Positions 211 through 63,117 of a stretch of DNA of 64,000 nucleotides are shown one piece after another. Under the pieces are notes generated by a model that saw only the letters and a list, made by a program, of their open reading frames with translations, was not told the DNA's origin and did not search any database. Numbering within the stretch: the stretch's first letter is position 1; each line of letters begins with the position of its first letter. The position numbers and the translations under genes are program-made. Source of the DNA: Edaphobacter sp. (lineage in GTDB: Bacteria > Acidobacteriota > Terriglobia > Terriglobales > Acidobacteriaceae); the NCBI GenBank assembly GCA_050012935.1, contig JBEKGF010000023.1, forward strand, positions 4,554-68,553. Direction: 5' to 3'.

Positions 211-1092
211 GTGGCTGTTTTGATCTCAACACCCATTCGAAATCTCTCTCACGCTCAGGCAACATCCCGCATTCTTATCACCACATTCTCCCTCCTTCTG
301 GTTACATCGCCCTTCGCAACCGCTCAGGCAAATCTCACAAGTACTCCCGCCTCCGATGGGATCGCCGCCAATACACGCCTCGAACTCCCCGACGCACCCA
401 GCGCCTTACTAACCGGTTCGAGCAGCTCCGACGACGCTTCCGCCAACTCCGCCGAGTTCTCCTTCGGTCAAGATCCAGCCCAACCGGTACCCGTAGCCAG
501 GTCATCGCCAAGAGGTGCATTCCACATGCAGCTGGTGGTCGCGCCAAATGAAATTGCGAATCCGATGTCGGTGGGCGACAAGGTCGAGGACGGGTTCAAA
601 AGCTCCGTATCTCTCTTCGCCGCCCTCGGATGGATTACGACCGCCGGGTATGAGCAGGCAACGAACGGCAGGCCAAACTACGGAACCAATAGCACGGCCT
701 TCGGTAAGCGATTCGGTGCAGTCGTCGCCCACGGCGTCTCCAATGGCGTCTTCAGCAACTCCTTCTTCGCTCCCATATTCCACGAAGACCCTCGCTACTA
801 CATCATGGGTCCAGGCCACTCCTTCTTCAAGCGGATCATCTACGCAGGCACCCGCTCCATCATCTCCCGCACCGACAGCGGAAAAACCATCCCTAACTTC
901 TCCCTGATCGCCGGCGACGCCGCAGGTGCCGCCCTCACAATCGTCTATTACCCCAGCATCAATACCACCACCACAGAGGTCCTCTCCAGCCTCGGCACCT
1001 CCCTTGGCGGCTCCGCCTTCGGTTATGTCGTCGATGAGTTCCTCGTCGACGCCCTGATCGACCTTCACCTCAAAAAGAAGCAGCAACCGTAG
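211..1092 (+). CDS. Uncharacterised acidobacterial exported/membrane protein, paralog 1 of 3 (H[EQ]D[PN]RY family)
   Basis: Signal-peptide-like N-terminus and LPDAPS linker. C-terminal domain has HEDPRYY...RxxYAxxRxIIxRxDxG...PNFS...YYP, shared with the two downstream ORFs. Confidence 0.75.
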   Translation: MAVLISTPIRNLSHAQATSRILITTFSLLLVTSPFATAQANLTSTPASDGIAANTRLELPDAPSALLTGSSSSDDASANSAEFSFGQDPAQPVPVARSSPRGAFHMQLVVAPNEIANPMSVGDKVEDGFKSSVSLFAALGWITTAGYEQATNGRPNYGTNSTAFGKRFGAVVAHGVSNGVFSNSFFAPIFHEDPRYYIMGPGHSFFKRIIYAGTRSIISRTDSGKTIPNFSLIAGDAAGAALTIVYYPSINTTTTEVLSSLGTSLGGSAFGYVVDEFLVDALIDLHLKKKQQP

Positions 1093-2169: not shown

Positions 2170-2221
2170 AGGCATTCGCTGCCCTCCGCGTACTATGGAA
2201 CATACGCGAGAGGGCCTTCGC

Positions 2222-3130
2222 ATGCGCCGGTTGCTGACAACGGGGCTATTGCTGTCTGCAATCGCGGCATCAGCGCAAACGCGACCGCCATCAGTTCCCG
2301 AAACCCCAGCCCACCTCCCAGGCATCACCTCGGCCGATCTTCCCGACGCGCCCGATCCAACCCAGTCAAAACAGGATGATGTCGTCACTATCGCCCAAGC
2401 GTCCTTCAAAGTAACCAGCGATGGCGTTCGTCCCTGCAATGTGTTCAGAGCCATGAAGGTGGTCTACTTCGACCCCAACCGTTACGATCAGATCCCCAAG
2501 CCCTGCACCGAACTCATCTATCCCTACCAGCGCTTTCTCACCAGCAACGTAATCATCCCGCTGACTTGGCAGCAAAAGGGCTACATTGCGCTCCACGACC
2601 TCACCGATCCCGCGAACTTCGGCACCATCCTCGGCATCTCCGCCATCACCATCGGGGCCAACTCCCATACCGCATACGGTCCCGGCCTCAAAGGCTTCGG
2701 CAAGATCGTCGGCGTCAGCCTCCTGCAGGACGCGACCGGCCAGTTCTTCGGGGCCTTCGCCATCCCCGTTATCGCGCATCAGGACCCGCGCTACTTCCGC
2801 ATGCCTCACGCCCGGCTGACCAAGCGGATCATCTACTGCGTCTCCCGCACCGTCATCTCGCGTAGCGACACCGGCAAATCGATCCCCAACTACGCCACGT
2901 TGCTGACCTATCCCATCACCGCCGAGATCGACAATCTCTACGTCCCCGGCATTCACCCCGATGGTGCTTCCACCACTGCCCGCATCTTCACCGGCTATGC
3001 TCTCGATCCCGCCAACAACCTTCTCAATGAGTTCCTCCCCGACGTCGCCAGCCGCGTCCACGTGCGCATCATCTTCGTCCAGCGAATCCTTAACAACATC
3101 GCAAGCAACAGCACTGCAGGATTGCCCTGA
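2222..3130 (+). CDS. Uncharacterised exported/membrane protein, paralog 3 of 3
   Basis: MRRLLTTGLLL signal peptide, then LPDAPD, HQDPRYF, RTVISRSDTG and PNYA motifs. Confidence 0.75.
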   Translation: MRRLLTTGLLLSAIAASAQTRPPSVPETPAHLPGITSADLPDAPDPTQSKQDDVVTIAQASFKVTSDGVRPCNVFRAMKVVYFDPNRYDQIPKPCTELIYPYQRFLTSNVIIPLTWQQKGYIALHDLTDPANFGTILGISAITIGANSHTAYGPGLKGFGKIVGVSLLQDATGQFFGAFAIPVIAHQDPRYFRMPHARLTKRIIYCVSRTVISRSDTGKSIPNYATLLTYPITAEIDNLYVPGIHPDGASTTARIFTGYALDPANNLLNEFLPDVASRVHVRIIFVQRILNNIASNSTAGLP

Positions 3131-3353
3131 CCGGGATTCCACTACCCCATCCAAACCCTATCCTTACCATTCAATGCAAAATCCCGCCGTTCGATTCCCA
3201 TAGCTTCGACATGGCCTCGTATGTGCGTACTCTTATCTAGGTAACCCCAAGGGAAAACCACGCCGCATCTTCTTAGATAGAAATCAGATAGCTTTGCATC
3301 GAAATGTATCTTTCAAAGCATATCCAGCGTCGAATCGATCAGGAGAAAGATTA

Positions 3354-5447
3354 ATGCCGAAGGCCAAATTGTTCGAGAAGTCTCTTACCTACGGAGCCAA
3401 AGCAGGCTGGGCAATCTTCAGCAGACTGAATGCCATCAGCCCCAACAAGAGCTTCACTCCCAAGTGGAGCGACAAGCCCCTGCTCAAGAGCTACCAGAAA
3501 GAGAAGCCGCCTCTCGGCTGGCCCCGCACCACAGACTCTCTCTGCCCCAAGTGCATCCCTGAGATCCGCCAGCAGATCGTCGACGGCAAACTCCCCCACG
3601 AAATCCTCCTCAACGAAAAAGTCGGCGAGATCAAAGCGCAGATCATCGAGCGCGACGGCAAGATCCTCATGGTCAAGGACTGCCCCATCCACGGCCACTT
3701 CGAGGACGTCATGTCCATCGACCCCGTCATGATGAAGCATCTCGAAGACGTCTTCCCCGGCCGCGACATCCGTGCCCACAACGACGACAAGCTCCACAAT
3801 CACGGCACCTCTACCGTCACCCACGGCCGCGGCTCGGTTCTCACCATCGACCTCACCAACCGCTGCAACATGATGTGCGATCCCTGCTTCATGGACGCCA
3901 ACCAGGTCGGCTTCGTCCACGAACTCACCTGGGACGAGATCAAGACCATGCTCGACAACGCCATCACCATCAAGCCGCGTCGTCAGATGAGCGTCCAGTT
4001 CTCAGGGGGCGAGCCCACTCTCTCGCCTTACTTCCTCGACGCCGTCGCCTACGCCCGCAAGCTCGGCTACGAGTCCGTGCAGGCCGCGACCAACGGCATC
4101 GAGTTCGCCAAGTCCAAGGAGTTCTCGAAGGCAGCCGCTGAAGCCGGTCTCCGCTACGCCTACCTCCAGTTCGACGGCATCGGCAACGCCGCCAACTCGC
4201 ACCGCAAGGTCGGCAACGCCTTCGACGTAAAACTTCAGGCCATCCATAACCTGCACGAGGCCGGCGTCGACATCGTCCCCGTCACCACCATCATCAACGG
4301 CATTAACAACGAGCAGGTCGGCCACATCATCCAGTTCGCGCTCGACAACCCAAAGAAGATCAACTTCCTCAGCTTCCAGCCCGTCTCCTTCACTGGCCGC
4401 GACGAAGAGGTCTCCGACGAGCGCCGCGCCGCACAGCGCTACACCCTCTCGCACCTCGCCCACGACGTCAAAAACCAGACCGGCATCGGCGAGCCCGTCC
4501 GCGACTGGTTCCCCATCAGCTTCATCAGCACCTTCTCCGACTTCGCCGACCTCGTCCACGGACCCGATCGCGACTGGGGCCAGATCTCCTGCGGCTGCCA
4601 CCCCAACTGCGGCATCGGCACCGCGATCATGATCGACAAGGAGACCAAGGAAGCCGTTCCCGTCACCGCGTTCCTCGACGCCGTCCAGCTTGCCAAGGAC
4701 GTCGCCAAGGTCAATGACGCGGCTCGCGGCAAGACCCTCTCGCTCATCGGCATGACGCTCGCCCTTCTCAAGAACTACGACCCATCCAAGGCCCCGACGC
4801 ACATGAAGATGAAGGACCTGTTGATGAAGTTCGACAAGTTCTCCGGAGCCACCAAGCGCAACTACGGCTCCGTCAAGGCCGACCGCACCAAGGCCGACAT
4901 CGACAAGCGCCGCGCCGACCGCTGGAACTTCCTCTTCATCGCCGGCATGTGGTTCCAGGATCTCTTCAACTACGACTTCCGCCGCACCGAGCAGTGCATC
5001 ATCCCCTACGCCACACAAGAGGGTGAGATCAGCTTCTGCGCCTACAACACAGGCGTAGGCTGGCGCAACATCATCGAGAAGATGCACATGACCTCCACCC
5101 TCACCAAGTGGTACGAGGAGCACGGTCGTCACGAGATCTTCGCCGGTGGCAAGAAGGTTGGTCTCGAGAAGGAAGCGACCTACGACCTCGTCCTCAACGA
5201 GGCCCACGTCAACGCCGCCGCCAACGACACCTTCGACAAGTCCGGCATCGCGAAGAACTCTCGCGAAGAAAAGATCCGCGCACGCGACGCCAAGATCAAG
5301 CAGGACGCCGAAAACGCCCGCATGGCCAAGCTCTACCGCAAGGAGATCCTCCAGGAGCCCGACGCCCCCGCCGGCTTCATCTCCCTAGGAGACATCAAGC
5401 CAGCCCCAGCGAAGGTCGAATCGGAAGAAACCGTCGCCGGCGATTGA
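3354..5447 (+). CDS. Radical SAM enzyme of the MJ0619 / tetraether lipid synthase (Tes, GDGT-MAS) family
   Basis: CxxxCxxC motif (RCNMMCDPC), N-terminal SLCPKC...CPIHG metal site, FSGGEPT, YLQFDG, CGCHPNCG and CIIPY...SFCAYN. AGGAG SD upstream of ATG 3354. Confidence 0.85.
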   Translation: MPKAKLFEKSLTYGAKAGWAIFSRLNAISPNKSFTPKWSDKPLLKSYQKEKPPLGWPRTTDSLCPKCIPEIRQQIVDGKLPHEILLNEKVGEIKAQIIERDGKILMVKDCPIHGHFEDVMSIDPVMMKHLEDVFPGRDIRAHNDDKLHNHGTSTVTHGRGSVLTIDLTNRCNMMCDPCFMDANQVGFVHELTWDEIKTMLDNAITIKPRRQMSVQFSGGEPTLSPYFLDAVAYARKLGYESVQAATNGIEFAKSKEFSKAAAEAGLRYAYLQFDGIGNAANSHRKVGNAFDVKLQAIHNLHEAGVDIVPVTTIINGINNEQVGHIIQFALDNPKKINFLSFQPVSFTGRDEEVSDERRAAQRYTLSHLAHDVKNQTGIGEPVRDWFPISFISTFSDFADLVHGPDRDWGQISCGCHPNCGIGTAIMIDKETKEAVPVTAFLDAVQLAKDVAKVNDAARGKTLSLIGMTLALLKNYDPSKAPTHMKMKDLLMKFDKFSGATKRNYGSVKADRTKADIDKRRADRWNFLFIAGMWFQDLFNYDFRRTEQCIIPYATQEGEISFCAYNTGVGWRNIIEKMHMTSTLTKWYEEHGRHEIFAGGKKVGLEKEATYDLVLNEAHVNAAANDTFDKSGIAKNSREEKIRARDAKIKQDAENARMAKLYRKEILQEPDAPAGFISLGDIKPAPAKVESEETVAGD

Positions 5448-5461: not shown

Positions 5462-5497
5462 AAAGAAAGCCTCCCAGAATCTGGGAGGCTTTCTTTT
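5462..5497. terminator. Bidirectional intrinsic terminator
   Basis: AAAGAAAGCCTCCCAG-aat-CTGGGAGGCTTTCTTT perfect stem with A and T tracts, between convergent genes. Confidence 0.9.
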
Positions 5498-5512: not shown

Positions 5513-5863
5513 TTATGGGAGCTGGTCATCTCGTAATATTGTGCGTGAATCATTCTTGTAAACCTCTTTAAATCGATTCCAAGGTGTCGTTTCAAGCATC
5601 TGACCGTCAACTACGAGTTTTACGAACCCCACTTCTGTAGCAACCAAATCTTCGGAGGTACGCAGTTGCAGCGTACGAGTGTCAGGGATGTCGGCTGATC
5701 GTTTATCTCGCGCCGAAAACTCCAAGAAGTAGTCGATTCCATCTATCATCACTGTTGTGGGCGACGTGGCCCCTACCACCTTGGACCTACACTTTGTACA
5801 CACCCACGTTGCCTGTGGCGTGTGAACCTCATACCCTTCCCAATTTAGATCTTTGGCTTGCAT
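5513..5863 (-). CDS. Hypothetical protein (116 aa, CxxC motif)
   Basis: Open ORF with AGAGAG upstream and WVCTKC motif. Visibly more AT-rich than its neighbours. Confidence 0.5.
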   Translation of the reverse strand: MQAKDLNWEGYEVHTPQATWVCTKCRSKVVGATSPTTVMIDGIDYFLEFSARDKRSADIPDTRTLQLRTSEDLVATEVGFVKLVVDGQMLETTPWNRFKEVYKNDSRTILRDDQLP

Positions 5864-5994: not shown

Positions 5995-6408
5995 CTAAAA
6001 CTCCACCAACTCCACACCCAGCCGCTCAAAATGCTTCCGGTTCAACGTAGCGACCACCATTCCATTAGCTGCGGCGGTCGCCGCGATCAGGACATCCATC
6101 GCATTGGGGTTGTGCCCATTTTTCTTAGCTCGTGCCATCAGGCTTCCGTAATGCCTCGCAACTTCGAGACTAAAACCCACCACACGGTTGAAGAACTGCA
6201 TATAGAGGTCCTCCTCGATCCAGTTCTCAAACTTCGTCCGTCTCTTGCCCGCAGGAAGAAGGTTAACGCCGTACCAAAGCTCGGCATAGGTGACAAAAGA
6301 GATGTAGAGATCGCTGTCATCTGTGCGCTGCACCCAGGCATCAACACGAGGGTCCGGAGGCAGCTTGGTGTATTGCGACACCACATCGGTATCGAGCAGG
6401 TACTTCAC
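5995..6408 (-). CDS. vapC: VapC-family PIN-domain toxin
   Basis: YLLDTDVVS, YAELWYG and MDVLIAATA PIN acidic motif residues. Overlaps the antitoxin stop by 4 bp. Confidence 0.92.
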   Translation of the reverse strand: MKYLLDTDVVSQYTKLPPDPRVDAWVQRTDDSDLYISFVTYAELWYGVNLLPAGKRRTKFENWIEEDLYMQFFNRVVGFSLEVARHYGSLMARAKKNGHNPNAMDVLIAATAAANGMVVATLNRKHFERLGVELVEF

Positions 6409-6665
6409 AACTCAACCTTCCTGGCTTTTGTGCGAGACCGCCGCAGATCAAGACCGGAGCCCGCCAGTGGCGAGTTCTTAAAGAAGTCGGACATCGTTCG
6501 AGCGTTCTGCGCGGGTGTGTGCTTTGCCTTTCCCCATTCCTCAGGAGACACAAGAACACCAACGAGTTTGCCATTGCGCGTAATCTCCTGCGCACCGTCC
6601 GCACGCGCGGTCTCAATCAACTCGCTGAACTTTGCCTTTGCCTCCGCCACTGCCCAAGTCGCCAT
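6405..6665 (-). CDS. Phd/YefM-family antitoxin
   Basis: WAVAEAKAKFSELIETA...EITRNGKLVGVLV Phd signature; GGAGG SD; directly upstream of vapC. Confidence 0.92.
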   Translation of the reverse strand: MATWAVAEAKAKFSELIETARADGAQEITRNGKLVGVLVSPEEWGKAKHTPAQNARTMSDFFKNSPLAGSGLDLRRSRTKARKVEL

Positions 6666-50248: not shown

Positions 50249-51232
50249 CTAGTTGCCGGGCTTGGTCGCCGACGTAGCCGCAGGCGGTGCCTGAGCGGGG
50301 GCAGCCGGCGGTGGTGGTGGTGGTGGCGTCTGGCCCGAGGCAGTCAACGCGTTATCGATCATACGGTATACATACTCCAGCGGGAGAGCCCCTTCTACCT
50401 TTTCTCCATTGATAAATAGCGCCGGAGTCGAGTCCACCCCCAGAGATTCGCCCAACTTCACCGATGCCTTGATCGCCGTATCATCCTGCTTGGTAATGCA
50501 CGCATTCAACGTATCGACATTCAGCTTCTGCCGCTTTCCCTCGTCGCGCGCCAGCGAATCCAGCGTATCGTTCGCCTTCGCCAGGCTCTTCTCTTCGCCG
50601 CCCATCCCCGCGGCATGTGCGTGGATATAATCCACCAGGTTCCAATACCCTGTCGGACTCTGCGCGGCAACGCAATTGGCATCGACCGCCGCCCGCATCG
50701 CCCATGGATGCTGATCCAGCGGAAAATCCCGGTAGACAATATGAATCTGGTTCTTATATCGCTCCGTCAGCGCGGGAAACAATTGAGCATGCATCTGGGC
50801 GCAGTACGGGCACTCCAGGTCGTCAAAGCCCACAATCAGCACCGGAGCATTCGCCGGTCCACCCCGTGCCGGTCGGCCATCCCCACTCACCAGCAGCTTC
50901 GGGTCCTTGCTGATGTCGTACTTGTTGAACTGTGCCAGTGTCTTGCCGTCCGTCGAAAGCAGGAACGTCATTGGCTTGCTTGTCTTGCCTTCCAGCGACA
51001 AAGTTACGGTGATCTCATCGAAGTCCGGCACATTGCTCTTCATTCGCGGACCAATGTGCATCTCATAATCCGGAGTTATCGAGGACCTCGAACGAATCAG
51101 CACCTCAACCCGCCGCGCCAGCTCCGGAGATAGCTCTTTCGAGGCCTCCGTTGGAGTCTGTGCGTGGCATCCAACAGCAGCCAGCGTTAAGGCAAAAATA
51201 AGGGCACGGAAAGACTTCACAACGGTAGGCAC
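50249..51232 (-). CDS. DsbA/DsbG-like thioredoxin-fold lipoprotein
   Basis: AVGC lipobox, GPANAPVLIVGFDDLECPYC, RDFPL...HPWA and GVDSTPALFING. Confidence 0.92.
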   Translation of the reverse strand: MPTVVKSFRALIFALTLAAVGCHAQTPTEASKELSPELARRVEVLIRSRSSITPDYEMHIGPRMKSNVPDFDEITVTLSLEGKTSKPMTFLLSTDGKTLAQFNKYDISKDPKLLVSGDGRPARGGPANAPVLIVGFDDLECPYCAQMHAQLFPALTERYKNQIHIVYRDFPLDQHPWAMRAAVDANCVAAQSPTGYWNLVDYIHAHAAGMGGEEKSLAKANDTLDSLARDEGKRQKLNVDTLNACITKQDDTAIKASVKLGESLGVDSTPALFINGEKVEGALPLEYVYRMIDNALTASGQTPPPPPPPAAPAQAPPAATSATKPGN

Positions 51233-51304
51233 AATACCTCGATTATCTCACGCGAGACGCGGTCTACACCGTCGCAAATCCCCGTAATCTCCACTGAATT
51301 CAGC

Positions 51305-54013
51305 TCAAAACAGACTCGCCGCGCGACGCAGATTCCCCGCCGTCCCGATATTCAACAACGTGAAGTTGAATCGTTCCGACGTCTCATTGCGCACCGAGCC
51401 CAGCTCGTACTTCCGAACCTCCACGCTGAACCCGCAGCAGTCCCAGTTATACGAGCCTTGCAGCGCGCCATACTGCAACAGCCCCGAATCCCCGGCCCTC
51501 AAATCCAGTCCCACGTTTGCCGCCACCCCCAACCCCGCTTTGGTCGGTGATCCATATCCCAGCAGCAGTTTCAATTGGTTGAAGTTCGACACCGCAGAAC
51601 TGACTCCCTCCGTAAAGAACCGTCCCGGCGCATTCAGCTTCGCATAGCTCAGACCTGCAAAAATATTGTTCTGATGTACGTCCACGATCACATTGTTGGA
51701 CGTAAATTTCTTCGCCCCGGTATCCAGGTCGAAATCCCACTCCACATCGATGTGCTCCGACGTCCGCCACCGCATCCGCGAGACCACCGGCGAAATCGCT
51801 CGCGGCTCCGTCAAAAACGCGATCCCCGAAAAATTCAGCGTCGTGTCGAAGATGTTCCGGCGCCCATTGATCACCGCCCCCCCGAAATTTTCATCGAAGA
51901 AGTACTTCTGTGTCAGGCGCCAACTGATCAACTCGCGGCTTCCGCACACCGGCTCGTGCTTCCCCCAGCCAACGCTCTGCTCCTTCGCATAAATCCGCCC
52001 GCCATCCTCATCCGGATCATCCTGCTCTCCGGTCGGCCGTTTTTCCTTGCATGGCCGATCCTTTACCGGACGCAAAAACAGCCTCTGCGTCACGCCGTAC
52101 TCCAGCTCATTCGTATCGCTCGCAACGTCGACATCGTCGAACCGCAGTATATTCAAAAAATTATTAATCCCCGCCACATAGCGATACGTAACCTCCGGCT
52201 CGATCGTATGCTTCACGTCATTCCCATCGAAAAGTTTCTCCAGGCCCGGCGCCGTAAACGTCCGCTCCAACACCGGAGCTCGCAAGTCCACCTCTGCCTC
52301 CACATCCGAGCGGTTGATCGCATTCGGCAGCTCGACCGGCAGCCCGTCCGGCGAATAAGGCGTCTGCCGGCTTCGGCTATAAGCCGTCTCCCGGAAGCCC
52401 ACCGACGACCGCAGCCGCCACCCATCGAATTTCAGCGGATACGAAATCTCCGGATGAAGATCCACCCGCTGCGTCAGGCCGCCAGTGGAAAAATTCGGCT
52501 GCACTCGCGACAGGCCCGCATACGAGCTCTCCACACTCCACTGCAACCCGCTCCTTCCGATCTCATGTTCCGTGCTGCTGAAATCCAGCGACGGCGCATG
52601 AAAGATACGCACCTGCTCCTCCGGTACTGCCGGCGTTCCCCCGACTGGGTCCGCAAATGGACGAGGACCGACCGGGCGAGGCAAGGCGGGCGTCGCAGCC
52701 TGAGCCGCCATCTTCAAACCCTGGTAGCGGTCCGCCCGCAGTCCCTCAGAATATCCATTCGACTCATGCACCCCATAGGCGATCGAAAGAATATCGCTCG
52801 ACACCGCCAGGCTGAAGCTCTCCGCAAACGCTTCGCGGTAGGTATACGAACTCAGATACTCTGCATCCGCGACCACCCGTGTCTCCTGGCTGAAGTCATG
52901 CCGGCCCGAGAACGTTACATCCTCGCCCCCCTGATTCACGAAGACCCCGTCCGTCACAATCCCGCGGTCCTGTAGCCCGCTGTAGTGCGACTTCGCAAAG
53001 TTATTCCCCAGCCCTTTATAACGAAACGACGCCGACTCCTCCCATCCGCGCAACGAGTAGTACTGCAACCCAATCGTCAGATCCGTGCTGCGGTTGATCG
53101 CCCAGTAGTACCCATCGCCAAACGTAAACCCCTTCGTCGAAGAGTACCCCGGCACCGGAATCAGAAAGCCGCTCTGCCTCTGCTCCGAATCCACCGGATG
53201 CGTCACATAAGGCATAAACATCAGAGGAATATTCATCATCCTGAAGATGCTGTTCTGCGCCTTCGCCTTTCCGCCGTCCATGTCCACCGTAAACTTGCCC
53301 GAGTCCAACATCCAATCAGGATTCGGCAACTGGCACGTCGTCAGCGTTCCCTCGTAGATCTCATACGTCTGCGGACCCGTCCTTACCACTATCTTTCCCG
53401 TAAACAGAAAGGGATTGCTGTTCGCATACGTCGTCAGGCTATGACCGTTGTTCTTCAGGCCGACAGACCCCGTCACATCGTAGAACCGCGCAGTCTGCAG
53501 ATTCAGATTCATCGTTCCGTGGCTGGCCTTGATGTCCTCATGGTTCGGCCCTCCGGTTACGTGCAAGTGTCCGTTGGCCGTCAGCTCGCCAGTCTCCGTG
53601 TTGTACTCGATGTGGTCCGCCCTCACAACGCGATCGCGATACGTAATAACAACATCGTCATCCAGCGTGTAGAGGTTTCCCGCCTTCGTCTGCGGTCCCA
53701 GCGACTCGATCACCACAGTCGTCCTGTCATCCTCGGCTGGCAACACCTCGGCAGCCGGATACTGCGTCGCCCCAGGCGCATCGGGAAGGCCCGTCTGAGG
53801 GGTTGCCTGACTCGTCACCTCTTGCGCCATCAGATGTGGATGACTTGCCACCGCCACCGTGATAGTTATCAAGAGGTAAACAGCGGCCAGGGAACTCTGC
53901 ACGAAGCGTCTCCCTCTGCTGTTCGAGAGAACGATCGAGATAGCGCGCAACACCTTGCATTTGCTCGTGCCCAACGCCAACGTACTCAACCTCAGTTGAC
54001 GCTGCCCAGGCAT
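51305..54013 (-). CDS. lptD: LPS-assembly outer-membrane protein LptD
   Basis: OstA-like N-domain (ADHIEYN, GTLTTC), QSGFLIP, YWAINRS, beta-barrel and C-terminal FNFTLLNIG. Start uncertain, possibly further downstream. Confidence 0.88.
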   Translation of the reverse strand: MPGQRQLRLSTLALGTSKCKVLRAISIVLSNSRGRRFVQSSLAAVYLLITITVAVASHPHLMAQEVTSQATPQTGLPDAPGATQYPAAEVLPAEDDRTTVVIESLGPQTKAGNLYTLDDDVVITYRDRVVRADHIEYNTETGELTANGHLHVTGGPNHEDIKASHGTMNLNLQTARFYDVTGSVGLKNNGHSLTTYANSNPFLFTGKIVVRTGPQTYEIYEGTLTTCQLPNPDWMLDSGKFTVDMDGGKAKAQNSIFRMMNIPLMFMPYVTHPVDSEQRQSGFLIPVPGYSSTKGFTFGDGYYWAINRSTDLTIGLQYYSLRGWEESASFRYKGLGNNFAKSHYSGLQDRGIVTDGVFVNQGGEDVTFSGRHDFSQETRVVADAEYLSSYTYREAFAESFSLAVSSDILSIAYGVHESNGYSEGLRADRYQGLKMAAQAATPALPRPVGPRPFADPVGGTPAVPEEQVRIFHAPSLDFSSTEHEIGRSGLQWSVESSYAGLSRVQPNFSTGGLTQRVDLHPEISYPLKFDGWRLRSSVGFRETAYSRSRQTPYSPDGLPVELPNAINRSDVEAEVDLRAPVLERTFTAPGLEKLFDGNDVKHTIEPEVTYRYVAGINNFLNILRFDDVDVASDTNELEYGVTQRLFLRPVKDRPCKEKRPTGEQDDPDEDGGRIYAKEQSVGWGKHEPVCGSRELISWRLTQKYFFDENFGGAVINGRRNIFDTTLNFSGIAFLTEPRAISPVVSRMRWRTSEHIDVEWDFDLDTGAKKFTSNNVIVDVHQNNIFAGLSYAKLNAPGRFFTEGVSSAVSNFNQLKLLLGYGSPTKAGLGVAANVGLDLRAGDSGLLQYGALQGSYNWDCCGFSVEVRKYELGSVRNETSERFNFTLLNIGTAGNLRRAASLF

Positions 54014-54107
54014 CGAGCCACCCGGTTCGTTCGGTTTTAAACTTGTCACACGCACCACATCTTTGAGGCTAAACGATTTTACGGAAGCGAGTTCGGAATT
54101 GAGCACT

Positions 54108-55514
54108 ATGAGCGCGGCGCAACGAGACCTGCTACCACTGGACGAACCGGCAGCCGAAACGGAAGCCACAGCCCCGGTTGCATTAAAGGAACCGTTCGCA
54201 CTCAAGGAACAGGTAGCCCAGCGTCTCGCCGCCCATCGCGCCCGCCGCACACAACGATCCGGCAGCGCCCAAACCCCCATCGCCAGCCCGGAGCCGGCGA
54301 ACTCGCGCACCTCCCGCATCGCCGCCGCAGTCGCCGAGCGCTATGCCAACTCGCAAAGCTACCGCGCCTTTCTCGCCGCCCAGGCCGAGACCGCCATCCG
54401 CGAAGCCCAGGCTGCAGCCGAGGTCGCAGCTCTCAATGCTCAGGCGGTCGCCGACGCCCAGTTCCAGCTCCTCGCGGAACTCGACCAATGGACTCTGACG
54501 CCTTCTGCACCGCCCCCAGCAACTCCTTCAGAGCATGCGCCGCGAATCACCGAAGCTCTACCCTCCACTCCATCTAACCCGTCGCAAGCCTACGGCCTTA
54601 CCGTCAGGCTCTACGACGAGGAGCAGGTTCCGCAAAAATATTTGCAACCGCACCTTACCTCAAACCGGGTCGACTCTCTGCTGTCGCTCGACGAAACCGA
54701 AGCGCTGGCCCTCGACGAAGAGATTGCCTTCCGCCAGTCGCCCGTCTTCGAGGACGCAGCGCCTCCCGTCGACCTCCCCGCCAACCTTATCGAGTTCCCC
54801 CGTCAGTTAGTAGCTCCGCGCAAAGCTCGTCCCCGGCTTGCCGAGGGCCCCTTGCGCGAAGAAGCCGATCACTCCGCACACCAGAACCCGGAGACGGCCC
54901 AACTCCGCATCTTCGAGGTCGAAGCCGCTCAGATCTCCACCGCTCCGGCCGTAGAATCCGTAGACCCCGAGTGGTCTTCCATCCTCCTCGCGGCCCATCC
55001 CCATCCCACCACCCCCCTCCTCGAGACTCCCGAAGCCCCCTTCCAGCCGGTCTTCTCCTCCCCGACCAAATCCCAGACCGCACCCTTCAATCTCCGCCTC
55101 ATGGCTGCCGTCGTCGACGGCTGCCTCATCGCCGCCGCTCTACTCGCCTTCATCGCTGTAGCTGCCCTCGCCGTCGGAAAATTCTCAGAAGGCCACGCAA
55201 CCATCGCAACCGAAATCCACATGACGCCGCAAGCCGCGTTGCTTGCAGCCACTGCGACATTGATCGTCCTCACCCTGCTCTACCAGCTCCTCTTCTTCAC
55301 TTTTTCAGAAGCGACTCCCGGCATGCGCTACGCCCGCATCGGTCTCTGCACCTTCTCCGACGACAACCCCACCCGCGCCGCCATACGCCGCCGCATCGTC
55401 GCCACCATCCTCGCCGCCTGCCCACTCGGCATAGGCTTCCTCTGGGCCTGGCTCGACGACGACGGCCTCGGCTGGCATGACCGCATCTCCCGCATGTATC
55501 AACGCAGCTACTAG
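54108..55514 (+). CDS. RDD family membrane protein with long N-terminal low-complexity region
   Basis: APFNLRLMAAVVD, TPGMR and HDRISR RDD motifs in the C-terminal third. Confidence 0.85.
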   Translation: MSAAQRDLLPLDEPAAETEATAPVALKEPFALKEQVAQRLAAHRARRTQRSGSAQTPIASPEPANSRTSRIAAAVAERYANSQSYRAFLAAQAETAIREAQAAAEVAALNAQAVADAQFQLLAELDQWTLTPSAPPPATPSEHAPRITEALPSTPSNPSQAYGLTVRLYDEEQVPQKYLQPHLTSNRVDSLLSLDETEALALDEEIAFRQSPVFEDAAPPVDLPANLIEFPRQLVAPRKARPRLAEGPLREEADHSAHQNPETAQLRIFEVEAAQISTAPAVESVDPEWSSILLAAHPHPTTPLLETPEAPFQPVFSSPTKSQTAPFNLRLMAAVVDGCLIAAALLAFIAVAALAVGKFSEGHATIATEIHMTPQAALLAATATLIVLTLLYQLLFFTFSEATPGMRYARIGLCTFSDDNPTRAAIRRRIVATILAACPLGIGFLWAWLDDDGLGWHDRISRMYQRSY

Positions 55515-55516
55515 AC

Positions 55517-55600
55517 TAGAGCTGTCTTGTAAACTAGAGCTGTCTTGTAACTAGAGCTGTCTTGTAACAAGAGCTGTCTTGCAGAGTAGAGCTTTCTTGC
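55517..55600 (+). repeat. Tandem array of five 17-18-bp units
   Basis: TAGAGCTGTCTTGTAAAC, TAGAGCTGTCTTGTAAC x2, AAGAGCTGTCTTGCAGAG and TAGAGCTTTCTTGC, with no spacers. Confidence 0.85.
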
Positions 55601-55617
55601 CGCGTCCTCTTCAGCTT

Positions 55618-55880
55618 TGTCATTCTGAGCGCAGCGAAGAACCCCCGCATTTGCATTTGCATTTGCAGTTGCATTTGCAGTTGTCGTTGCTCGTTGCTCG
55701 TTTTTTAGTTTGTCACCCTTCGCCGAAGGCGGAGGATCTGCCTTTGTCTCTGCCTTTTGTCTTTGTCGTTGCTTCCAGATGAGGGGGTTTCAGCCGCGTC
55801 TAGCCCGCAAGCGCCTCACCGCTCTGCCCTGAACAGCGTCGAAGGGCCGGAGCGAAGCCCGAAGGGGCAAAGCGACTGAT
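55618..55880 (+). repeat. Cluster of REP-like family B palindromes with (TTGCA[TG])n linker
   Basis: TGTCATTCTGAGCGCAGCGAAGAACCCCCGCATTT, TTGCAT/TTGCAG hexamers, TGTCACCCTTCGCCGAAGGCGGAGGATCTG and a further GC-rich hairpin. Confidence 0.7.
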
Positions 55881-55944
55881 TTATCGCTCTTGCATTCGCC
55901 GCAAACCACAGACAAGAAACACTTTACAAACCACCAAATTATCT

Positions 55945-56231
55945 TTTAGCGTTTTAAGCCCAAAAATCGCATGTCAAGCTCCGAAGCCACCTAAATCACT
56001 CAATCAAAACGAGTTATAATTGGCGTATTAGTTCCACTCAGCCAGCTATAATGGATATATAGAGTCAAGAAAAAGCCCCGGCACAGACTGGGGCTTCGCA
56101 TTTAAGCCAGTAAGTCGTTTGCTGGCACGAATTTAGCAATAAGTCCCGTGGTTGCACATATTTAGCAGGGATTGAACTAGCTATATCATTGCAGCCATTG
56201 AAGTTATCGCCGACAATAGGGGGGGTACCCC
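55945..56231 (+). repeat. Dispersed ~300-bp non-coding element, copy 3
   Basis: AAAATCGCATGTCAAGC (55963), CCTAA, TTGGCGTATTAGTTCC, GCTATAATGGATATATAGAGTCAAGAAAAAGCCCCGG hairpin, ...ATTTAGC sub-repeats and GGGGGGGTACCCC end. Confidence 0.82.
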
Positions 56232-56435
56232 TGGGGAGAAGAGAAAGGAAGCAGAGACCAAGGAACAACGGCCCTACCTTTGTCATTCAATCCGATCCGA
56301 GCCATAGGGGCGCGCACGAACCAGATCCGAGGCATCATTCGGTTTCGCGGATGTAAGCACACATCCACTGTCGCTGGAGTTCATCGCCATCCTCAATCAC
56401 ATCCAACGTGAGAGAGGATCGGAACCAGGAGCTGC

Positions 56436-56858
56436 CTACGCCAAAGGAGCCTGCGCCGCGGCCAGCAGATCCGCGCTCACTGCAGACGGGTCTCCAGCCT
56501 TGCCAGCAACCAACTCTGCCGTGGCTGCGGCAGTAACAAGAGCCCCTGTAGTCGGTGCGCGCTTCGTCTGAAAGCATTGCCGGCAAAGCACAGGCCGCCC
56601 CTGCGTCGGCTTGAACGGCACGGTCGTCTCGATACCGCACGCCGAACACTCCGTGCGTGTCTCCGTTCGCGAAAGACCGGCTGCGGCAGGCCCCGTACCG
56701 GCCTTCGCACTCGCGCCGGACCGCTTGGACTTGCATGGTTTGCAACGCTTCGGGTCATTCTTGAACTGTTTGTCGAAGAAGAAAAGTTGTTCCCCGGCGG
56801 TGAAGATGAACTCCCCGCCACAATCTGCACAGGTTAAGAGCCGATCCACAAATTCCAT
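56436..56858 (-). CDS. Double zinc-ribbon protein (zf-trcl plus CxxC-x17-CxxC type)
   Basis: DRLLTCADCGGEFIFTAGEQLFF...PKRCKPCK and CSACG...VPFKP...RPVLCRQCF. Confidence 0.9.
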   Translation of the reverse strand: MEFVDRLLTCADCGGEFIFTAGEQLFFFDKQFKNDPKRCKPCKSKRSGASAKAGTGPAAAGLSRTETRTECSACGIETTVPFKPTQGRPVLCRQCFQTKRAPTTGALVTAAATAELVAGKAGDPSAVSADLLAAAQAPLA

Positions 56859-57142
56859 ACCGCTTCTCCCGTTCGTTACGGAAAGGAAGAACATCCAGCG
56901 AGCCTGATCGTGGCAACACCCTGGAATTCAACCTTTGCTGATAATTGGTGCTTCCTGGTTTTTTGAGGGGGCCCGGAATGCTGAAACGCTTCGATTTGCC
57001 AGTCAATGTGGGCCGGTCGATTGGCTCTCTCTGCTGGTGCCAGTCAATGGCGGGAGTCCACTGCGCTGGCGGGTTCAAGAGGCCGCCTCGTCAGACTCTT
57101 CAAAAGAGGAGGAGACGGCCTGTCTTGGTTGCGGAGCAGCGA

Positions 57143-57340
57143 CTAATCCTGCTCCTTACGTACCTTCTTGCGATTGCGCTTACGTGCAAGCGCCTCTTTC
57201 ACGCGCTTCTTCTCACCTGGTTTCAGATAAAAAGAGTGGCGCTTAACTTCCTTGATGATGTCTTCCGTCTGCACCTTGCGCTTGAAGCGCCGCAGTGCGT
57301 TCTCAAGGGGTTCGCCTTCTTGTACTCGAACCTCTGCCAA
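57143..57340 (-). CDS. rpsU: 30S ribosomal protein bS21
   Basis: GEPLENALRRFKRKV...EVKRHSFYLKPGEKKR. TTG start with GGAGGTG SD. Confidence 0.95.
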   Translation of the reverse strand: MAEVRVQEGEPLENALRRFKRKVQTEDIIKEVKRHSFYLKPGEKKRVKEALARKRNRKKVRKEQD

Positions 57341-57495
57341 GAAAAATACACCTCCAAACATTCCCAATCGGGACACGTTCAGAATACGCCAGTTTGACTC
57401 GAAAATCACATAAAATCGTGGCTAATTTGACCTTGCAAAACTACAAAATCCCTCCATCAAAAACTCACCTTCCGCTTCAGCGTAAAATTCACTCT

Positions 57496-58017
57496 ATGAT
57501 CCGGTCCTATCAGGGAATAACTCCAGTCATTCCAACAAGCTGCTACATCGATCCCTCCGCGCAGATTATCGGCGACGTCATTCTGGGAGAACAGGCAAGT
57601 GTATGGATGAACGCTGTCATCCGCGGCGATGTTAACTCAATACGCATCGGCGCGAAGAGCAATGTGCAAGACTGTGCAGTCTTGCACGGCATGCGATACA
57701 TCTACCCAGTCATCGTTGGAGAGATGGTCACCATAGGCCACAACGCGACAGTGCACGGTTGCGTGTTGGAGGATGCTGTGCTCGTAGGCATTGGCGCCAC
57801 CATCCTCAACAATGCTCGCATCGGAGAAGGTTCCATCATCGCTGCCGGAGCCGTCATTCCGGAGCAGACCGTCATTCCGCCAAACTCGCTGGTCGCAGGC
57901 GTACCGGGCAAAGTCCGTCGCACGCTTGGTGAGGATGACAGGGCGATGATCCTCAAATACGCGCAGAACTACCTTGATTACACCGCGATCTACCTCAGGG
58001 AAGCCTCCGGATCATAA
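57496..58017 (+). CDS. Gamma carbonic anhydrase family (YrdA-like) protein
   Basis: Hexapeptide repeats, IRGDVNSIRIG, NVQDCAVLH, TIGHNATVHGC and AGVPGK. Confidence 0.92.
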   Translation: MIRSYQGITPVIPTSCYIDPSAQIIGDVILGEQASVWMNAVIRGDVNSIRIGAKSNVQDCAVLHGMRYIYPVIVGEMVTIGHNATVHGCVLEDAVLVGIGATILNNARIGEGSIIAAGAVIPEQTVIPPNSLVAGVPGKVRRTLGEDDRAMILKYAQNYLDYTAIYLREASGS

Positions 58018-58048
58018 ATCTTCACTCATCTTCGCTACACTGAAGGGA

Positions 58049-59341
58049 ATGGGCACTTTGAAAGCAGTACGCGGCACCCGGGATCTGCTTCCTCCAGAGA
58101 CCGCGCTTTGGAACCATGTTGAGGCCACGGCGCGCGCTGTCTTTGCGCGCTATGGATTTGGCGAGATCCGTACGCCGGTCTTTGAGGACACAACCTTATT
58201 TGCCAGGAGCGTTGGCGAGGAGACCGACATCGTCTCCAAGGAGATGTACACCTGGGAGGATCGCACGCGCGCTGACAGCGAGACGGGCCAGTCCCTCACT
58301 CTTCGACCGGAGAATACCGCCGGCGTTGTTCGCGCTTACATCGAACACAAGCTGGCAGACTCCGGAATGTTGCAGAAGCTGTTCTACATCGGGCCGCAGT
58401 TTCGCCGCGAGCGTCCGCAGCGCGGACGATACCGGCAGTTCTGGCAGATTGGGGCTGAGGTGCTCGGCCCTGCGTGGTCGGGGTCGGATAGTCCGCTGCG
58501 CGATGCTGAAGTCCTGGAGATGCTCGCTGCCTTCCTCAACGAGCTTGGCGTGAAGGGTTGGAAGCTGGAGATCAACTCCGTTGGTTCGTCGTCCGATCGG
58601 CCCCGCTATGTTGCTGCGCTGCGTGAGGCTCTGGGTCCGGTCAAGGCGATGATGAGTCCCGACAATCAGCGGCGCGCCGAGACGAATCCGCTACGTGTGC
58701 TCGACAGCAAAGAGCCCTTCGATCAGGAGATCATCGACAACCTGCCGAAGATTGCGGACTTCCTCGATGATGCGAGCAAACTGCACTTCGCGCAGGTGCT
58801 CGGCGCGCTGGATGCTTGTGGCGTTGCTTATACGGTGAATCCGCGCCTGGTTCGTGGGCTGGATTACTACACGCGGACGACGTTCGAGTTCACGGTTCCT
58901 GATGGAAGCGGGTTGGGAACGCAGAACGCTCTGCTTGGCGGCGGACGATACGACGGATTGTCCGAGATGCTGGGTGGACCGAACGCTCCTGGAATCGGTT
59001 TTGCGATTGGCGAAGATCGCCTCATCCTCACCTTGCAAGCGCAGGCGGAAGCTCCTGCGGAGAGGAAGCTTGACGCGTTCGTTGCTCCGATGGGTATTGC
59101 GCAGAATGCCGCTGCGCTTGTGTTAGCGAAGGAGCTGCGCGATACAGGGCTTACGGTCGAACTCGGAGACGGAAGCTTCCGGTTGAAAAAGTCGTTTGAG
59201 GCGGCGGACAAGCTGGCTCGACGCATGGTGATTCTGGGTGAAGACGAGGTTTCGTCGGGTATTCTGACGGTTAAACACTTTAGCGCAGGCGAACAGACCA
59301 AGGTTCCTCGAACCGAACTTGCGAAGTTCCTGCGAGGTTGA
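58049..59341 (+). CDS. hisS: Histidine--tRNA ligase
   Basis: RGTRD, DIVSKEMY, LRPENTA, FRRERPQRGRYRQF, LVRGLDYY and GGGRYDGL. Confidence 0.97.
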   Translation: MGTLKAVRGTRDLLPPETALWNHVEATARAVFARYGFGEIRTPVFEDTTLFARSVGEETDIVSKEMYTWEDRTRADSETGQSLTLRPENTAGVVRAYIEHKLADSGMLQKLFYIGPQFRRERPQRGRYRQFWQIGAEVLGPAWSGSDSPLRDAEVLEMLAAFLNELGVKGWKLEINSVGSSSDRPRYVAALREALGPVKAMMSPDNQRRAETNPLRVLDSKEPFDQEIIDNLPKIADFLDDASKLHFAQVLGALDACGVAYTVNPRLVRGLDYYTRTTFEFTVPDGSGLGTQNALLGGGRYDGLSEMLGGPNAPGIGFAIGEDRLILTLQAQAEAPAERKLDAFVAPMGIAQNAAALVLAKELRDTGLTVELGDGSFRLKKSFEAADKLARRMVILGEDEVSSGILTVKHFSAGEQTKVPRTELAKFLRG

Positions 59342-59374
59342 GCTTTTTCTTCAGCGAGCGACGACGATTGGAAA

Positions 59375-61204: not shown

Positions 61205-61787
61205 CCGGTTCCGTGGGCTCTTCGCGGGATGGGATCACGGCTAAGGACCGGGTCTCTTCGACGACGCTTGTGACAGGCTCTGCGATCGGCGTTTCAGGTT
61301 CGGCTGGAGGCGATCGTTTTCGGGTGGGGGGAGTTGGCGGTTCTTGCGGTTCGGGGTCGAGCTCGAGGCGAGAGAAGACCTCGATGATGGCTCCTGGTTC
61401 TGCGAGATCGAGGCCGCTGGGCGAGGACTCGACGGCGCGGACGACCTCCGGTGTGCCGGGTGCATTGTTGAGGCGGGCTGCGTTGGAGGATGCGAGCTGA
61501 AGGCCGTAGAGCAGTACGGTCGCGCGTTTCGGGTCGATGCGATTGGTGGCGAGGGCATTGACGACGACTGAGATTGCGAGCTGGACGGACTCACGGTCTT
61601 CAAGAACGCAGAGCTCGAGGTCTCGCCCGTGGGTAAAGTAAGCTCGGGTCTCGTCGGTGGCGCGAAAGTTGGCGTGGCGGGCGTGAAGGCGGTTGTGAAA
61701 GTAGCACCACTGGCCTCCGGTGAGGGCGGGCGCGTGGCATTGCAGACCGTTGGTTTTGATGTGACGGCAGAGCGGATATTGTTCCAT
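61146..61787 (-). CDS. Hypothetical protein with N-terminal C-x9-C-x10-C-x2-H zinc-finger-like motif, directly downstream of element copy 4
   Basis: CRHIKTNGLQCHAPALTGGQWCYFH followed by a helical LEDRESVQLAIS...RIDPKRATVLLYGLQLASSN block. AGGAG SD at 61796-61800. Confidence 0.75.
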   Translation of the reverse strand: MEQYPLCRHIKTNGLQCHAPALTGGQWCYFHNRLHARHANFRATDETRAYFTHGRDLELCVLEDRESVQLAISVVVNALATNRIDPKRATVLLYGLQLASSNAARLNNAPGTPEVVRAVESSPSGLDLAEPGAIIEVFSRLELDPEPQEPPTPPTRKRSPPAEPETPIAEPVTSVVEETRSLAVIPSREEPTEPASAGSPSDAAPASGDRSPV

Positions 61788-61804
61788 GACGTTGTCTCCT
61801 TTGA

Positions 61805-63058: not shown

Positions 63059-63117
63059 GGCTGTTCTAATTTCATCATAGCGGTTGAGCGTAAAAACGGT
63101 TTACACGTGGCGCGAAT

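What the first reader, a model, noticed from the sequence alone, without database searches (positions are those of the whole stretch)
3354..5447. Tetraether-lipid-synthase (Tes/MJ0619)-like radical SAM: candidate membrane-spanning lipid (brGDGT) enzyme
Seen in the sequence: an N-terminal CxxC...CxxH site, the SAM cluster motif and extra C-terminal Cys motifs (CGCHPNCG, CIIPY...FCAYN). This is the architecture of archaeal Tes/GDGT-MAS, which couples lipid tails by C-C bond formation. Acidobacteria are known producers of iso-diabolic acid and branched GDGTs, and the role of their Tes homologs is still unsettled. A charged C-terminal tail of about 100 aa is unexplained.
Basis: partly seen in the sequence, partly recalled or inferred. 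Interest (0 to 1): 0.65.

Follow-up and report, generated by a model that had tools for sequence, protein, structure and literature searches.

The report
Three-cofactor Tes-like lipid-coupling enzyme gene
This soil acidobacterium carries an intact, very strongly conserved relative of the archaeal enzyme that welds two lipid tails into a membrane-spanning lipid; it lacks one of that enzyme's four metal centres, and it is the best candidate (published in 2022, still untested) for making the iso-diabolic-acid/brGDGT lipids used as palaeoclimate proxies.

Summary
Window 3354-5447 (+) is a real 697-aa gene with a Shine-Dalgarno site and a terminator. The protein is a clear relative of archaeal tetraether synthase GDGT-MAS/Tes (7TOL, E 1.7e-62; model TM 0.79). 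It is not a canonical Tes. It scores 330 bits against the NCBIfam Tes model (cut-off 450). The whole clade lacks the Cys triad of the N-terminal [4Fe-4S] cluster. It forms its own clade (98/100), apart from MJ0619 and from the canonical Tes that some Acidobacteriaceae also carry.

The rubredoxin-like site, the radical-SAM cluster and the C-terminal catalytic cluster ligands, including the labile Met, are kept. This "type 1" gene occurs in 112 of 121 Acidobacteriaceae genomes. It also occurs in Bryobacterales and in Chloracidobacterium, all iso-diabolic-acid producers. It is absent from Geothrix. The genome has a second copy (82%) and a PlsA/Ger-like ether-lipid gene.

Best reading (about 0.6): tail-to-tail C-C coupling of iso-C15 lipids. 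The idea was already published (Zeng 2022, Halamka 2022). The three-cofactor architecture and the near-universal distribution are the additions. The tail remains unexplained.

The parts
3354..5447 (+). Type-1 Tes-like radical SAM gene (697 aa plus stop)
   Evidence: orthologue alignment
3336..3341 (+). Shine-Dalgarno-like AGGAGA upstream of ATG 3354
   Evidence: sequence printed
3360..3428 (+). N-terminal helix aa 3-25. It is moderately amphipathic (muH 0.41, net +4) and may be an in-plane membrane anchor. It is absent from MJ0619.
   Evidence: AF2 pLDDT 85-93; hydrophobic moment
3450..3527 (+). Nearly invariant linker FTPKWSDKPLLKSYQKEKPPLGWPR (aa 33-58). The model shows it as disordered. Function unknown.
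3522..3716 (+). Rubredoxin-like zinc-ribbon domain (C64, C67, C110, H113) with a clade-specific 22-aa insert after the CxxC
   Evidence: PF23545 E 7e-13; alignment to MJ0619 C9/C12/C33/H36
3792..3833 (+). LHNHGTSTVTHGRG. This segment stands where GDGT-MAS has the [4Fe-4S]N motif CPYDCGLCPNH. It contains no Cys and has low model confidence.
3864..3887 (+). Radical SAM cluster motif C171-x3-C175-x2-C178
3852..4340 (+). Radical SAM core domain (aa 167-329)
   Evidence: PF04055 E 9e-19
4590..4613 (+). CGCHPNCG. C419 aligns with MJ0619 C338, a probable [4Fe-4S]C ligand. C413 and C415 are extra Cys that many canonical Tes proteins also have.
4941..4961 (+). AGMWFQD. M532 aligns with the labile cluster ligand Met439 of GDGT-MAS.
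   Evidence: PMC9433317
4992..5048 (+). QCIIPY...FCAYN. C548 and C562 align with MJ0619 C456 and C470 (C-terminal auxiliary cluster).
5112..5444 (+). C-terminal extension aa 587-697: invariant YEEHGRHEIFAGG, conserved GIAKNxREEKxRAR, a charged helix at 637-665, and a disordered end ...AGD. Function unexplained.
5462..5496 (.). 16-bp palindromic hairpin between this gene and the convergent ORF 5513-5863. It is probably a bidirectional terminator.

Best explanation
The gene encodes a membrane-associated radical SAM enzyme of a distinct, Acidobacteriota-wide branch ('type 1') of the tetraether-synthase family. This branch carries three metal cofactors, not four.

Inferred mechanism, by homology to GDGT-MAS:
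1. The [4Fe-4S]RS cluster (C171/C175/C178) cleaves SAM to a 5'-deoxyadenosyl radical.
2. That radical abstracts H from the terminal methyl carbon of an iso-C15 chain of a glycerolipid held in a hydrophobic tunnel.
3. The lipid radical is parked on a sulfide of the C-terminal auxiliary [4Fe-4S] cluster (C419, C548, C562, labile M532).
4. A second SAM-derived radical on a second tail forms the omega-omega C-C bond.
5. The product is iso-diabolic acid (13,16-dimethyl-octacosanedioic acid) lipids, that is, membrane-spanning tetraesters.

Where a PlsA/Ger-type ester reductase is present, as in this genome, those lipids or their ether precursors could become brGDGTs. Electrons would enter through the rubredoxin-like site, because the surface [4Fe-4S]N relay of the archaeal enzyme is missing.

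Shown here: family, fold, ligand conservation, missing cluster motif, distribution. Inferred: substrate, product, membrane anchoring by the N-terminal helix. Unexplained: the C-terminal tail.
For: Homology and fold:
- 7TOL E 1.7e-62 over residues 92-586; BLASTP 30% identity, E 2e-67.
- The AF2 model matches 7TOM/7TOL at TM 0.79 and E 2e-27. The next hit, MoaA, matches only at 8e-7.

Catalytic ligands: the RS motif, C338/M439/C456/C470 equivalents and the rubredoxin site are conserved, against the cofactor map of PMC9433317.

Constraint:
- 75-91% identity across Acidobacteriaceae, Bryobacterales and Angelobacter.
- The two paralogues have dN/dS 0.22.

Distribution tracks iso-diabolic acid:
- A match in 112/121 Acidobacteriaceae genomes, 94/98 of the high-quality ones, with about 95 full-length.
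- Present in Bryobacterales MAGs and in S. usitatus as Acid_2410 (714 aa).
- Present in Chloracidobacterium validum and thermophilum and in a Blastocatellales MAG.
- C. validum has only this type and has iso-diabolic acid as a main fatty acid.
- iso-DA occurs in subdivisions 1, 3, 4 and 6, and Acidobacteria have no Mss.
- No family member at 1e-40 in Geothrix (Holophagae) or in a genome whose closest named RpsL relatives are Thermoanaerobaculia MAGs.

Literature and genome context:
- E. aggregans makes iso-DA and brGDGT. Its single reported homologue (32% identity, 4e-61) has type-1-like statistics.
- This genome also has a PlsA/Ger-like gene.
Against: - No biochemical or genetic test of any type-1 protein exists in the searchable literature.
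- The protein scores below the curated Tes cut-off and sits in a separate clade, so transfer of function is an extrapolation.
- S. usitatus carries a type-1 gene, yet no free iso-diabolic acid was detected there.
- There is no lipid-gene operon context.
- Radical SAM chemistry in strict aerobes needs explaining.
- The naming of negative-control genomes is limited to a few.
Confidence: 0.6

Rival explanations
1. It is a dedicated brGDGT (tetraether) synthase. On this view it couples only ether-linked iso-C15 diethers, exactly as the first reader and Halamka et al. proposed for S. usitatus.
For: Same family as archaeal Tes, which acts on diethers. S. usitatus has this type and makes brGDGTs. This genome has a PlsA/Ger-like gene.
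Against: The gene is present in about 96% of good Acidobacteriaceae genomes. The PlsA/Ger-like DUF2229 protein is present in only 44/99. Most SD1 strains make ester-bound iso-DA, not tetraethers. C. validum has type 1 only and makes iso-DA. Archaeal Tes itself binds ester lipids.
Confidence: 0.1
2. It performs a different radical modification of lipid tails in which the canonical Tes-type auxiliary cluster chemistry is re-used. Examples would be intramolecular macrocyclisation, a mid-chain cross-link or C-S chemistry. On this view the true iso-DA synthase is an unidentified, non-homologous enzyme, the 'alternative pathway' of Sahonero-Canavesi et al.
For: It forms a separate clade on a long branch (0.68) and has lost one cluster. 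It has clade-specific N- and C-terminal additions. Some genomes carry type 1 and canonical type 2 close together, which suggests non-redundant roles.
Against: All ligands of the two clusters that do the coupling chemistry are kept. The distribution matches iso-DA. No other candidate is known in Acidobacteria.
Confidence: 0.17
3. It has a non-lipid function or is a catalytically degenerate paralogue. A cofactor or peptide modification is one possibility, as in the original HMPTM annotation.
For: JGI still annotates many members as 7,8-dihydro-6-hydroxymethylpterin dimethyltransferase. Some divergent relatives have lost cluster ligands: T. roseus P0140 and P0147.
Against: The HMPTM assignment was not reproducible for MJ0619. 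The window protein keeps every catalytic ligand and is under strong purifying selection. The model covers the whole GDGT-MAS chain, including the C-terminal domain that lies next to the lipid pockets (TM 0.79 normalised to the target).
Confidence: 0.08

Closest known systems
GDGT-MAS / tetraether synthase Tes of archaea (M. jannaschii MJ0619, PDB 7TOL/7TOM; M. acetivorans MA_1486; NCBIfam NF045702)
   Same: Same fold (TM 0.79). Both have the rubredoxin-like CxxC...CxxH site, the radical SAM CX3CX2C motif, the C-terminal auxiliary cluster ligands and the labile Met. The predicted chemistry is the same: Csp3-Csp3 coupling of two lipid tail ends.
   Different: Only 30% identity, and 330 bits against a 450-bit cut-off. 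It lacks the N-terminal auxiliary [4Fe-4S] cluster (C73/C77/C80/His). It has a 22-aa insert in the rubredoxin domain, an extra N-terminal segment of about 55 aa with a helix, and a C-terminal tail of about 111 aa. It forms a separate clade. The presumed substrate is iso-C15 acyl/alkyl bacterial lipid, not phytanyl diether.
Canonical bacterial Tes homologues ('type 2': S. usitatus Acid_5929, Ca. Koribacter, Korobacteraceae; PGAP name 'tetraether lipid synthase Tes')
   Same: Same family and same phylum. They sometimes lie within 2-13 kb of a type-1 gene in Acidobacteriaceae genomes.
   Different: Type 2 proteins are about 550 aa, 44% identical to MJ0619, score 580 bits on NF045702 and keep all four metal sites. 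They occur in only about 20 of 121 Acidobacteriaceae genomes and are absent from this genome. Type 1 is 33-40% identical to them.
Orthologues already named in the literature: S. usitatus Acid_2410 (714 aa, 30.1% to MA_1486, 4e-62) and the single E. aggregans Tes homologue (32%, 4e-61)
   Same: Same length class and same similarity statistics as the window protein. They were proposed as brGDGT candidates by Zeng et al. 2022 and Halamka et al. 2022.
   Different: Those papers treat them simply as weaker Tes homologues. In the papers that could be read here, the missing cluster, the separate clade and the near-universal distribution are not described.
Mss, membrane-spanning lipid synthase of Thermotoga and Thermoanaerobacter (Sahonero-Canavesi 2022)
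   Same: A radical SAM enzyme shown to couple two fatty acyl tails into (iso-)diabolic acids. This is the function proposed here.
   Different: A different radical SAM family, and reported to have no homologues in Acidobacteria. So far it is found only in anaerobes. It was not compared by sequence here because no Mss sequence was available to the tools.

Membership tests
Tes / GDGT-MAS (NCBIfam NF045702 equivalog) | Whole-protein score at or above the curated cut-off (450 bits) | tested here: not met
   329.9 bits. The paralogue scores 318.8. Type-2 controls score 580-586 bits.
Tes / GDGT-MAS | Rubredoxin-like mononuclear site C-x2-C...C-x2-H | tested here: met
   C64, C67, C110 and H113 align with C9, C12, C33 and H36. 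PF23545 E 7e-13.
Tes / GDGT-MAS | N-terminal auxiliary [4Fe-4S] cluster ligated by C73, C77, C80 and a His | tested here: not met
   The segment is LHNHGTSTVTHGRG with no Cys. The motif is absent from the whole type-1 clade and present in all type-2 and canonical sequences except one.
Tes / GDGT-MAS | Radical SAM CX3CX2C cluster and core | tested here: met
   C171/C175/C178; PF04055 E 9e-19.
Tes / GDGT-MAS | C-terminal auxiliary [4Fe-4S] cluster with labile Met439 | tested here: met
   C419, M532, C548 and C562 align with C338, M439, C456 and C470 and are invariant in alignment A1. Actual metal binding was not testable.
Tes / GDGT-MAS | Overall fold of 7TOL/7TOM | tested here: met
   Foldseek E 2e-27, TM 0.79 normalised to the target. 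Model pLDDT 73, pTM 0.79.
Tes / GDGT-MAS | Groups with characterised Tes in a tree | tested here: not met
   The cluster-less sequences form their own clade (98/100, branch 0.68), apart from MJ0619 plus type 2. The rooting is unreliable, so 'sister' versus 'nested' is open.
Tes / GDGT-MAS | Catalyses tail-to-tail C-C coupling of glycerolipids | not testable with these tools
   No experiment on any type-1 member was found.
TrsS radical SAM (seleno)protein (NF045646) | Score at or above 490 bits | tested here: not met
   207.5 bits.
Mss (bacterial MSL synthase) | Sequence homology to T. maritima / T. ethanolicus Mss | not tested
   No Mss sequence or model was available. The literature reports no mss homologues in Acidobacteria.
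Radical SAM superfamily (PF04055) | Pfam gathering score | tested here: met
   68.7 bits against a 29.5-bit cut-off.

The most novel reading that the evidence does not exclude
The type-1, three-cofactor Tes-like clade is the long-sought iso-diabolic acid (membrane-spanning lipid) synthase of aerobic Acidobacteria. On this reading it acts on ester-linked iso-C15 phospholipids. It has shed the surface-exposed [4Fe-4S]N cluster and gained N- and C-terminal modules as an adaptation to oxic life and to a different electron donor. Canonical type-2 Tes is a later, accessory enzyme linked to tetraether formation. The 'alternative, convergent pathway' inferred from stringent BLAST screens would then be an artefact of the 30% identity threshold.
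Probability: 0.5. Interest if true: 0.75.

Novelty: new variant of a known kind. Interest (0 to 1): 0.5.

Why it matters
brGDGTs and their iso-diabolic acid precursors underpin widely used soil and lake palaeothermometers and pH proxies. The bacterial enzyme that makes the membrane-spanning C-C bond in Acidobacteria has never been demonstrated.

If this near-universal type-1 protein is that enzyme, three things follow. Source organisms could be mapped from metagenomes with a specific marker; current screens at >=30% identity or with the NCBIfam Tes cut-off miss it. Proxy physiology could be tested genetically. And the enzyme would show that the Tes coupling chemistry works without the N-terminal cluster, in aerobes.

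The candidate itself is not new (Zeng 2022, Halamka 2022). What this analysis adds is sharper definition and testability.

Tried and rejected
- **Operon context.** I looked for a lipid operon around the gene. Neighbours in the window are three unknown secreted proteins, a VapC/Phd pair, DoxX, an M15 peptidase, OCD and DUF480. Across 80 orthologous loci, only the unknown upstream family recurs (28/80). It has no Pfam, NCBIfam or PDB-fold match, so it gives no functional support.
- **Genes between type 1 and type 2.** In other genomes these are unrelated: serpin, VKOR, SDR, a methyltransferase.
- **PF06050 as a PlsA/Ger marker.** It gave nothing, but the T. maritima control did not ring either, so that negative result is uninformative. 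PF09989 and PF01869 worked.
- **Tree rooting.** The outgroups were poor. L004 turned out not to be a radical SAM ORF, and L003 landed inside the ingroup. Only the unrooted split is used.
- **Papers not held.** The supplement with Table S21 of Sahonero-Canavesi and the paper by Chen et al. 2025 (GCA 401:190) were not held. The latter is known only through its citation in PMC13023045.
- **TrsS membership.** Rejected on score.
- **CGCHPNCG as a type-1 signature.** Rejected. CxCHxxC or CHxxC occurs in many canonical Tes proteins, and MJ0619 is the odd one out.
- **Second copy as contamination.** Rejected. Another species of the genus also has two copies (G234), and dN/dS between the copies is 0.22.
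Full report
**Observation.** The + strand ORF 3354-5447 encodes 697 aa.
- The ATG at 3354 follows an AGGAGA box and coincides with the start of orthologues. The longer TTG start at 3294 is therefore unlikely.
- A 16-bp palindromic hairpin at 5462-5496 separates the gene from a convergent ORF. The gene is probably monocistronic.
- The protein has only 11 cysteines, and all of them lie in these motifs.
- Pfam finds the HMPTM zinc ribbon (E 7e-13) and the radical SAM domain (E 9e-19).

**Family and fold.**
- The best solved relative is GDGT-MAS, MJ0619 (7TOL/7TOM): E 1.7e-62 over residues 92-586. BLASTP gives 30% identity and E 2e-67.
- An AlphaFold2 model (pLDDT 73, pTM 0.79) matches 7TOM/7TOL with target-normalised TM 0.79 and E 2e-27. 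The next hit, MoaA, covers only the radical SAM core.
- NCBIfam's Tes equivalog model gives 329.9 bits, below its 450-bit cut-off. TrsS gives 207 bits against a 490-bit cut-off.

**What differs from archaeal Tes.** Lloyd et al. (PMC9433317) describe four cofactors:
- a rubredoxin-like Fe (C9, C12, C33, H36);
- a surface N-terminal [4Fe-4S] cluster (C73, C77, C80 and a His);
- the RS cluster;
- a C-terminal [4Fe-4S] cluster with labile Met439, on which the substrate-sulfur intermediate forms.

I rebuilt MJ0619 residues 1-490 from the tool alignment and aligned it with the family.
- Kept in the window protein: the rubredoxin site, the RS motif, and the equivalents of C338, M439, C456 and C470 (C419, M532, C548, C562).
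- Missing: the CPxxCGxCxxH motif. LHNHGTSTVTHGRG stands in its place.
- Added: a 22-aa insert in the rubredoxin domain, an N-terminal segment of about 55 aa, and a C-terminal extension of 111 aa.
- The extra Cys of CGCHPNCG are not special to this clade.

**Two lineages in Acidobacteria.**
- Type 1 (this protein, about 700 aa) gives a match in 112 of 121 sampled genomes of the same family, and in 94 of 98 high-quality ones. About 95 genomes have a full-length copy at 71% identity or more.
- A second lineage ('type 2') is about 550-570 aa and 33-40% identical to ours. It occurs in about 20 of those genomes, in several of them within 2-13 kb of type 1.
- Type 2 has all four metal sites and scores 580-586 bits on the Tes model. 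It is 44% identical to MJ0619. PGAP names it 'tetraether lipid synthase Tes' in Korobacteraceae and Terriglobales. Type 1 is named only 'radical SAM protein'.
- In an ML tree the sequences lacking the cluster form one clade (98/100, branch 0.68), apart from MJ0619 and type 2. The outgroups were poor, so the root is open.
- The window's genome has no type 2. It does have a second type-1 copy on contig C105: 82% identity, the same tail, dN/dS 0.22. One other species of the genus also has two copies.

**Distribution and link to lipids.**
- Named genomes with type 1 at 75-91% identity include Tunturiibacter psychrotolerans (the closest named isolate), Granulicella aggregans, Acidipila rosea, and MAGs labelled Edaphobacter, Terriglobus, Terracidiphilus, Ca. 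Angelobacter, Sulfopaludibacter and Bryobacterales.
- At phylum level, roughly 135-140 of 301 genomes have type 1, about 39 have only more distant family members, and 124 have none.
- By exact look-up, one type-1-only genome is Chloracidobacterium validum, and another is a Blastocatellales MAG. Chloracidobacterium has iso-diabolic acid as a main fatty acid (PMC12816986).
- Among genomes with no family member, one is Geothrix. For three others, the closest named RpsL relatives are Thermoanaerobaculia, Aminicenantia and Holophagae MAGs.
- This pattern matches the reported occurrence of iso-diabolic acid in subdivisions 1, 3, 4 and 6.
- S. usitatus Acid_2410 (714 aa, 30.1%, 4e-62) has the length and similarity statistics of type 1, and Acid_5929 (545 aa, 40%) those of type 2. 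The single E. aggregans homologue (32%, 4e-61) has type-1 statistics.
- Type 1 sits right at the 30% identity threshold. This plausibly explains why a stringent screen found Tes homologues in only 3 of 14 iso-DA-producing acidobacteria and inferred an alternative pathway.

**State of knowledge.**
- Bacterial Tes homologues were proposed as brGDGT enzymes in 2022. As of 2025-2026 they are still described as not experimentally confirmed.
- A 2025 study, known to me only through a citation, links a Tes homologue to iso-diabolic tetraesters in Koribacter, and Tes plus Ger to brGDGTs in S. usitatus.
- This genome carries a 1225-aa PlsA/Ger-like protein (two BcrAD_BadFG domains plus DUF2229). It sits in an operon with an unknown 601-aa protein and a radical SAM protein.
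- Such a gene is present in 44 of 99 good genomes of the family. Ether or tetraether formation is therefore conceivable here, but it is not general for carriers of type 1.

**Mechanism.** I infer Tes-like omega-omega coupling of iso-C15 chains of glycerolipids to give iso-diabolic-acid membrane-spanning lipids.
- The RS cluster and the Met-capped C-terminal cluster would do the chemistry.
- The rubredoxin-like site would be the electron entry point.
- The N-terminal helix 3-25 (muH 0.41, net +4; pLDDT about 90) is a plausible in-plane membrane anchor.
- The segment 33-58 is nearly invariant yet modelled as disordered.

**The tail.**
- Residues 587-599 (YEEHGRHEIFAGG) are invariant, and GIAKNxREEKxRAR (631-644) is conserved.
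- A highly charged, non-amphipathic helix spans 637-665, and the end is disordered.
- In more distant type-1 proteins the similarity to this protein ends at about residue 605, so this form of the tail is specific to the closer relatives.
- Its role (partner docking, oligomerisation or regulation) remains unexplained.

**Context.** There is no lipid operon around the gene.
- The only recurrent neighbour is a family of unknown secreted helical proteins directly upstream on the same strand. The window has three tandem copies, and 28 of 80 loci have one or more.
- That family has no match in Pfam, NCBIfam or PDB folds.

**Earlier notes of this scan.** Notes on orthologues in other genomes reached the same reading: a divergent Tes-like enzyme that lacks one metal centre and is a published but untested candidate. 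I re-derived each point here independently. Those notes are not counted as evidence.

**Verdict.**
- It is a new variant of a known kind, already flagged in the literature as a candidate.

Noticed in passing
window 1-64000 (switch near 56000-58040): Very strong strand-specific GC skew. The + strand skew is -0.15 to -0.35 whatever the gene orientation. The third-codon-position skew is about -0.5 to -0.6 in + strand genes and +0.15 to +0.64 in - strand genes. The sign flips at about 56-58 kb (cumulative minimum at 58,040). No dnaA lies there; the genes are LptD, RDD, a treble-clef zinc finger, a hexapeptide transferase, HisRS and AspRS. Whether this is the origin, the terminus or an inversion edge is not resolved.
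   Followed up: partly
window 211-1092, 1171-2169, 2195-3130 (+): Tandem triplet of paralogous proteins of about 300 aa. Each has a signal or TM helix, a disordered Pro/Ser-rich stretch and a confidently modelled helical bundle (aa 120-309, pLDDT about 90) with the motif HQDPRY. There is no Pfam, NCBIfam or PDB-fold match. A member of the family lies directly upstream of the type-1 Tes-like gene, on the same strand, in 28 of 80 orthologous loci.
   Followed up: partly
own genome contig C8, L115 5115-17195 (G000:C8:~51100-63200): Candidate ether-lipid cluster. On the - strand: radical SAM (427 aa), unknown protein (601 aa), PlsA/Ger-like protein (1225 aa; 2x BcrAD_BadFG + DUF2229) and an FtsX permease. 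Divergent from these is an AMP-binding/PP-binding/acyltransferase fusion (863 aa).
   Followed up: partly
own genome contig C105, L002 275-2362 (+): A second, intact type-1 Tes-like paralogue: 82% aa identity, the same C-terminal ...VAGD, dN/dS 0.22 against the window copy. In the tree it branches outside the window/Tunturiibacter/Acidipila group, so it is an older duplicate or was acquired from another Acidobacteriaceae lineage.
   Followed up: partly
loci L013-L016 (G056, G083, G118, G089): In several Acidobacteriaceae genomes the canonical Tes (type 2) lies 0.3-11 kb from the type-1 gene. In G089 it is directly adjacent on the same strand. The genes in between are unrelated to lipids.
   Followed up: partly
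P0140 (Terriglobus roseus DSM 18391, WP_014786616.1), P0147, P0151, P0180: Divergent relatives of type 1 (38-40% identity) have lost the C-terminal cluster cysteines or, in P0147, even the radical SAM CX3CX2C motif. They are possibly pseudo-enzymes.
   Followed up: no
window 5995-6665 (-): VapC (PIN) toxin and Phd/YefM antitoxin pair immediately downstream of the locus.
   Followed up: no
G120:C18:224383-226433 and G092:C13:123501-125424 (same family): In two related genomes the type-1 gene appears disrupted: in-frame TGA stops or a split into pieces. This suggests occasional loss.
   Followed up: no
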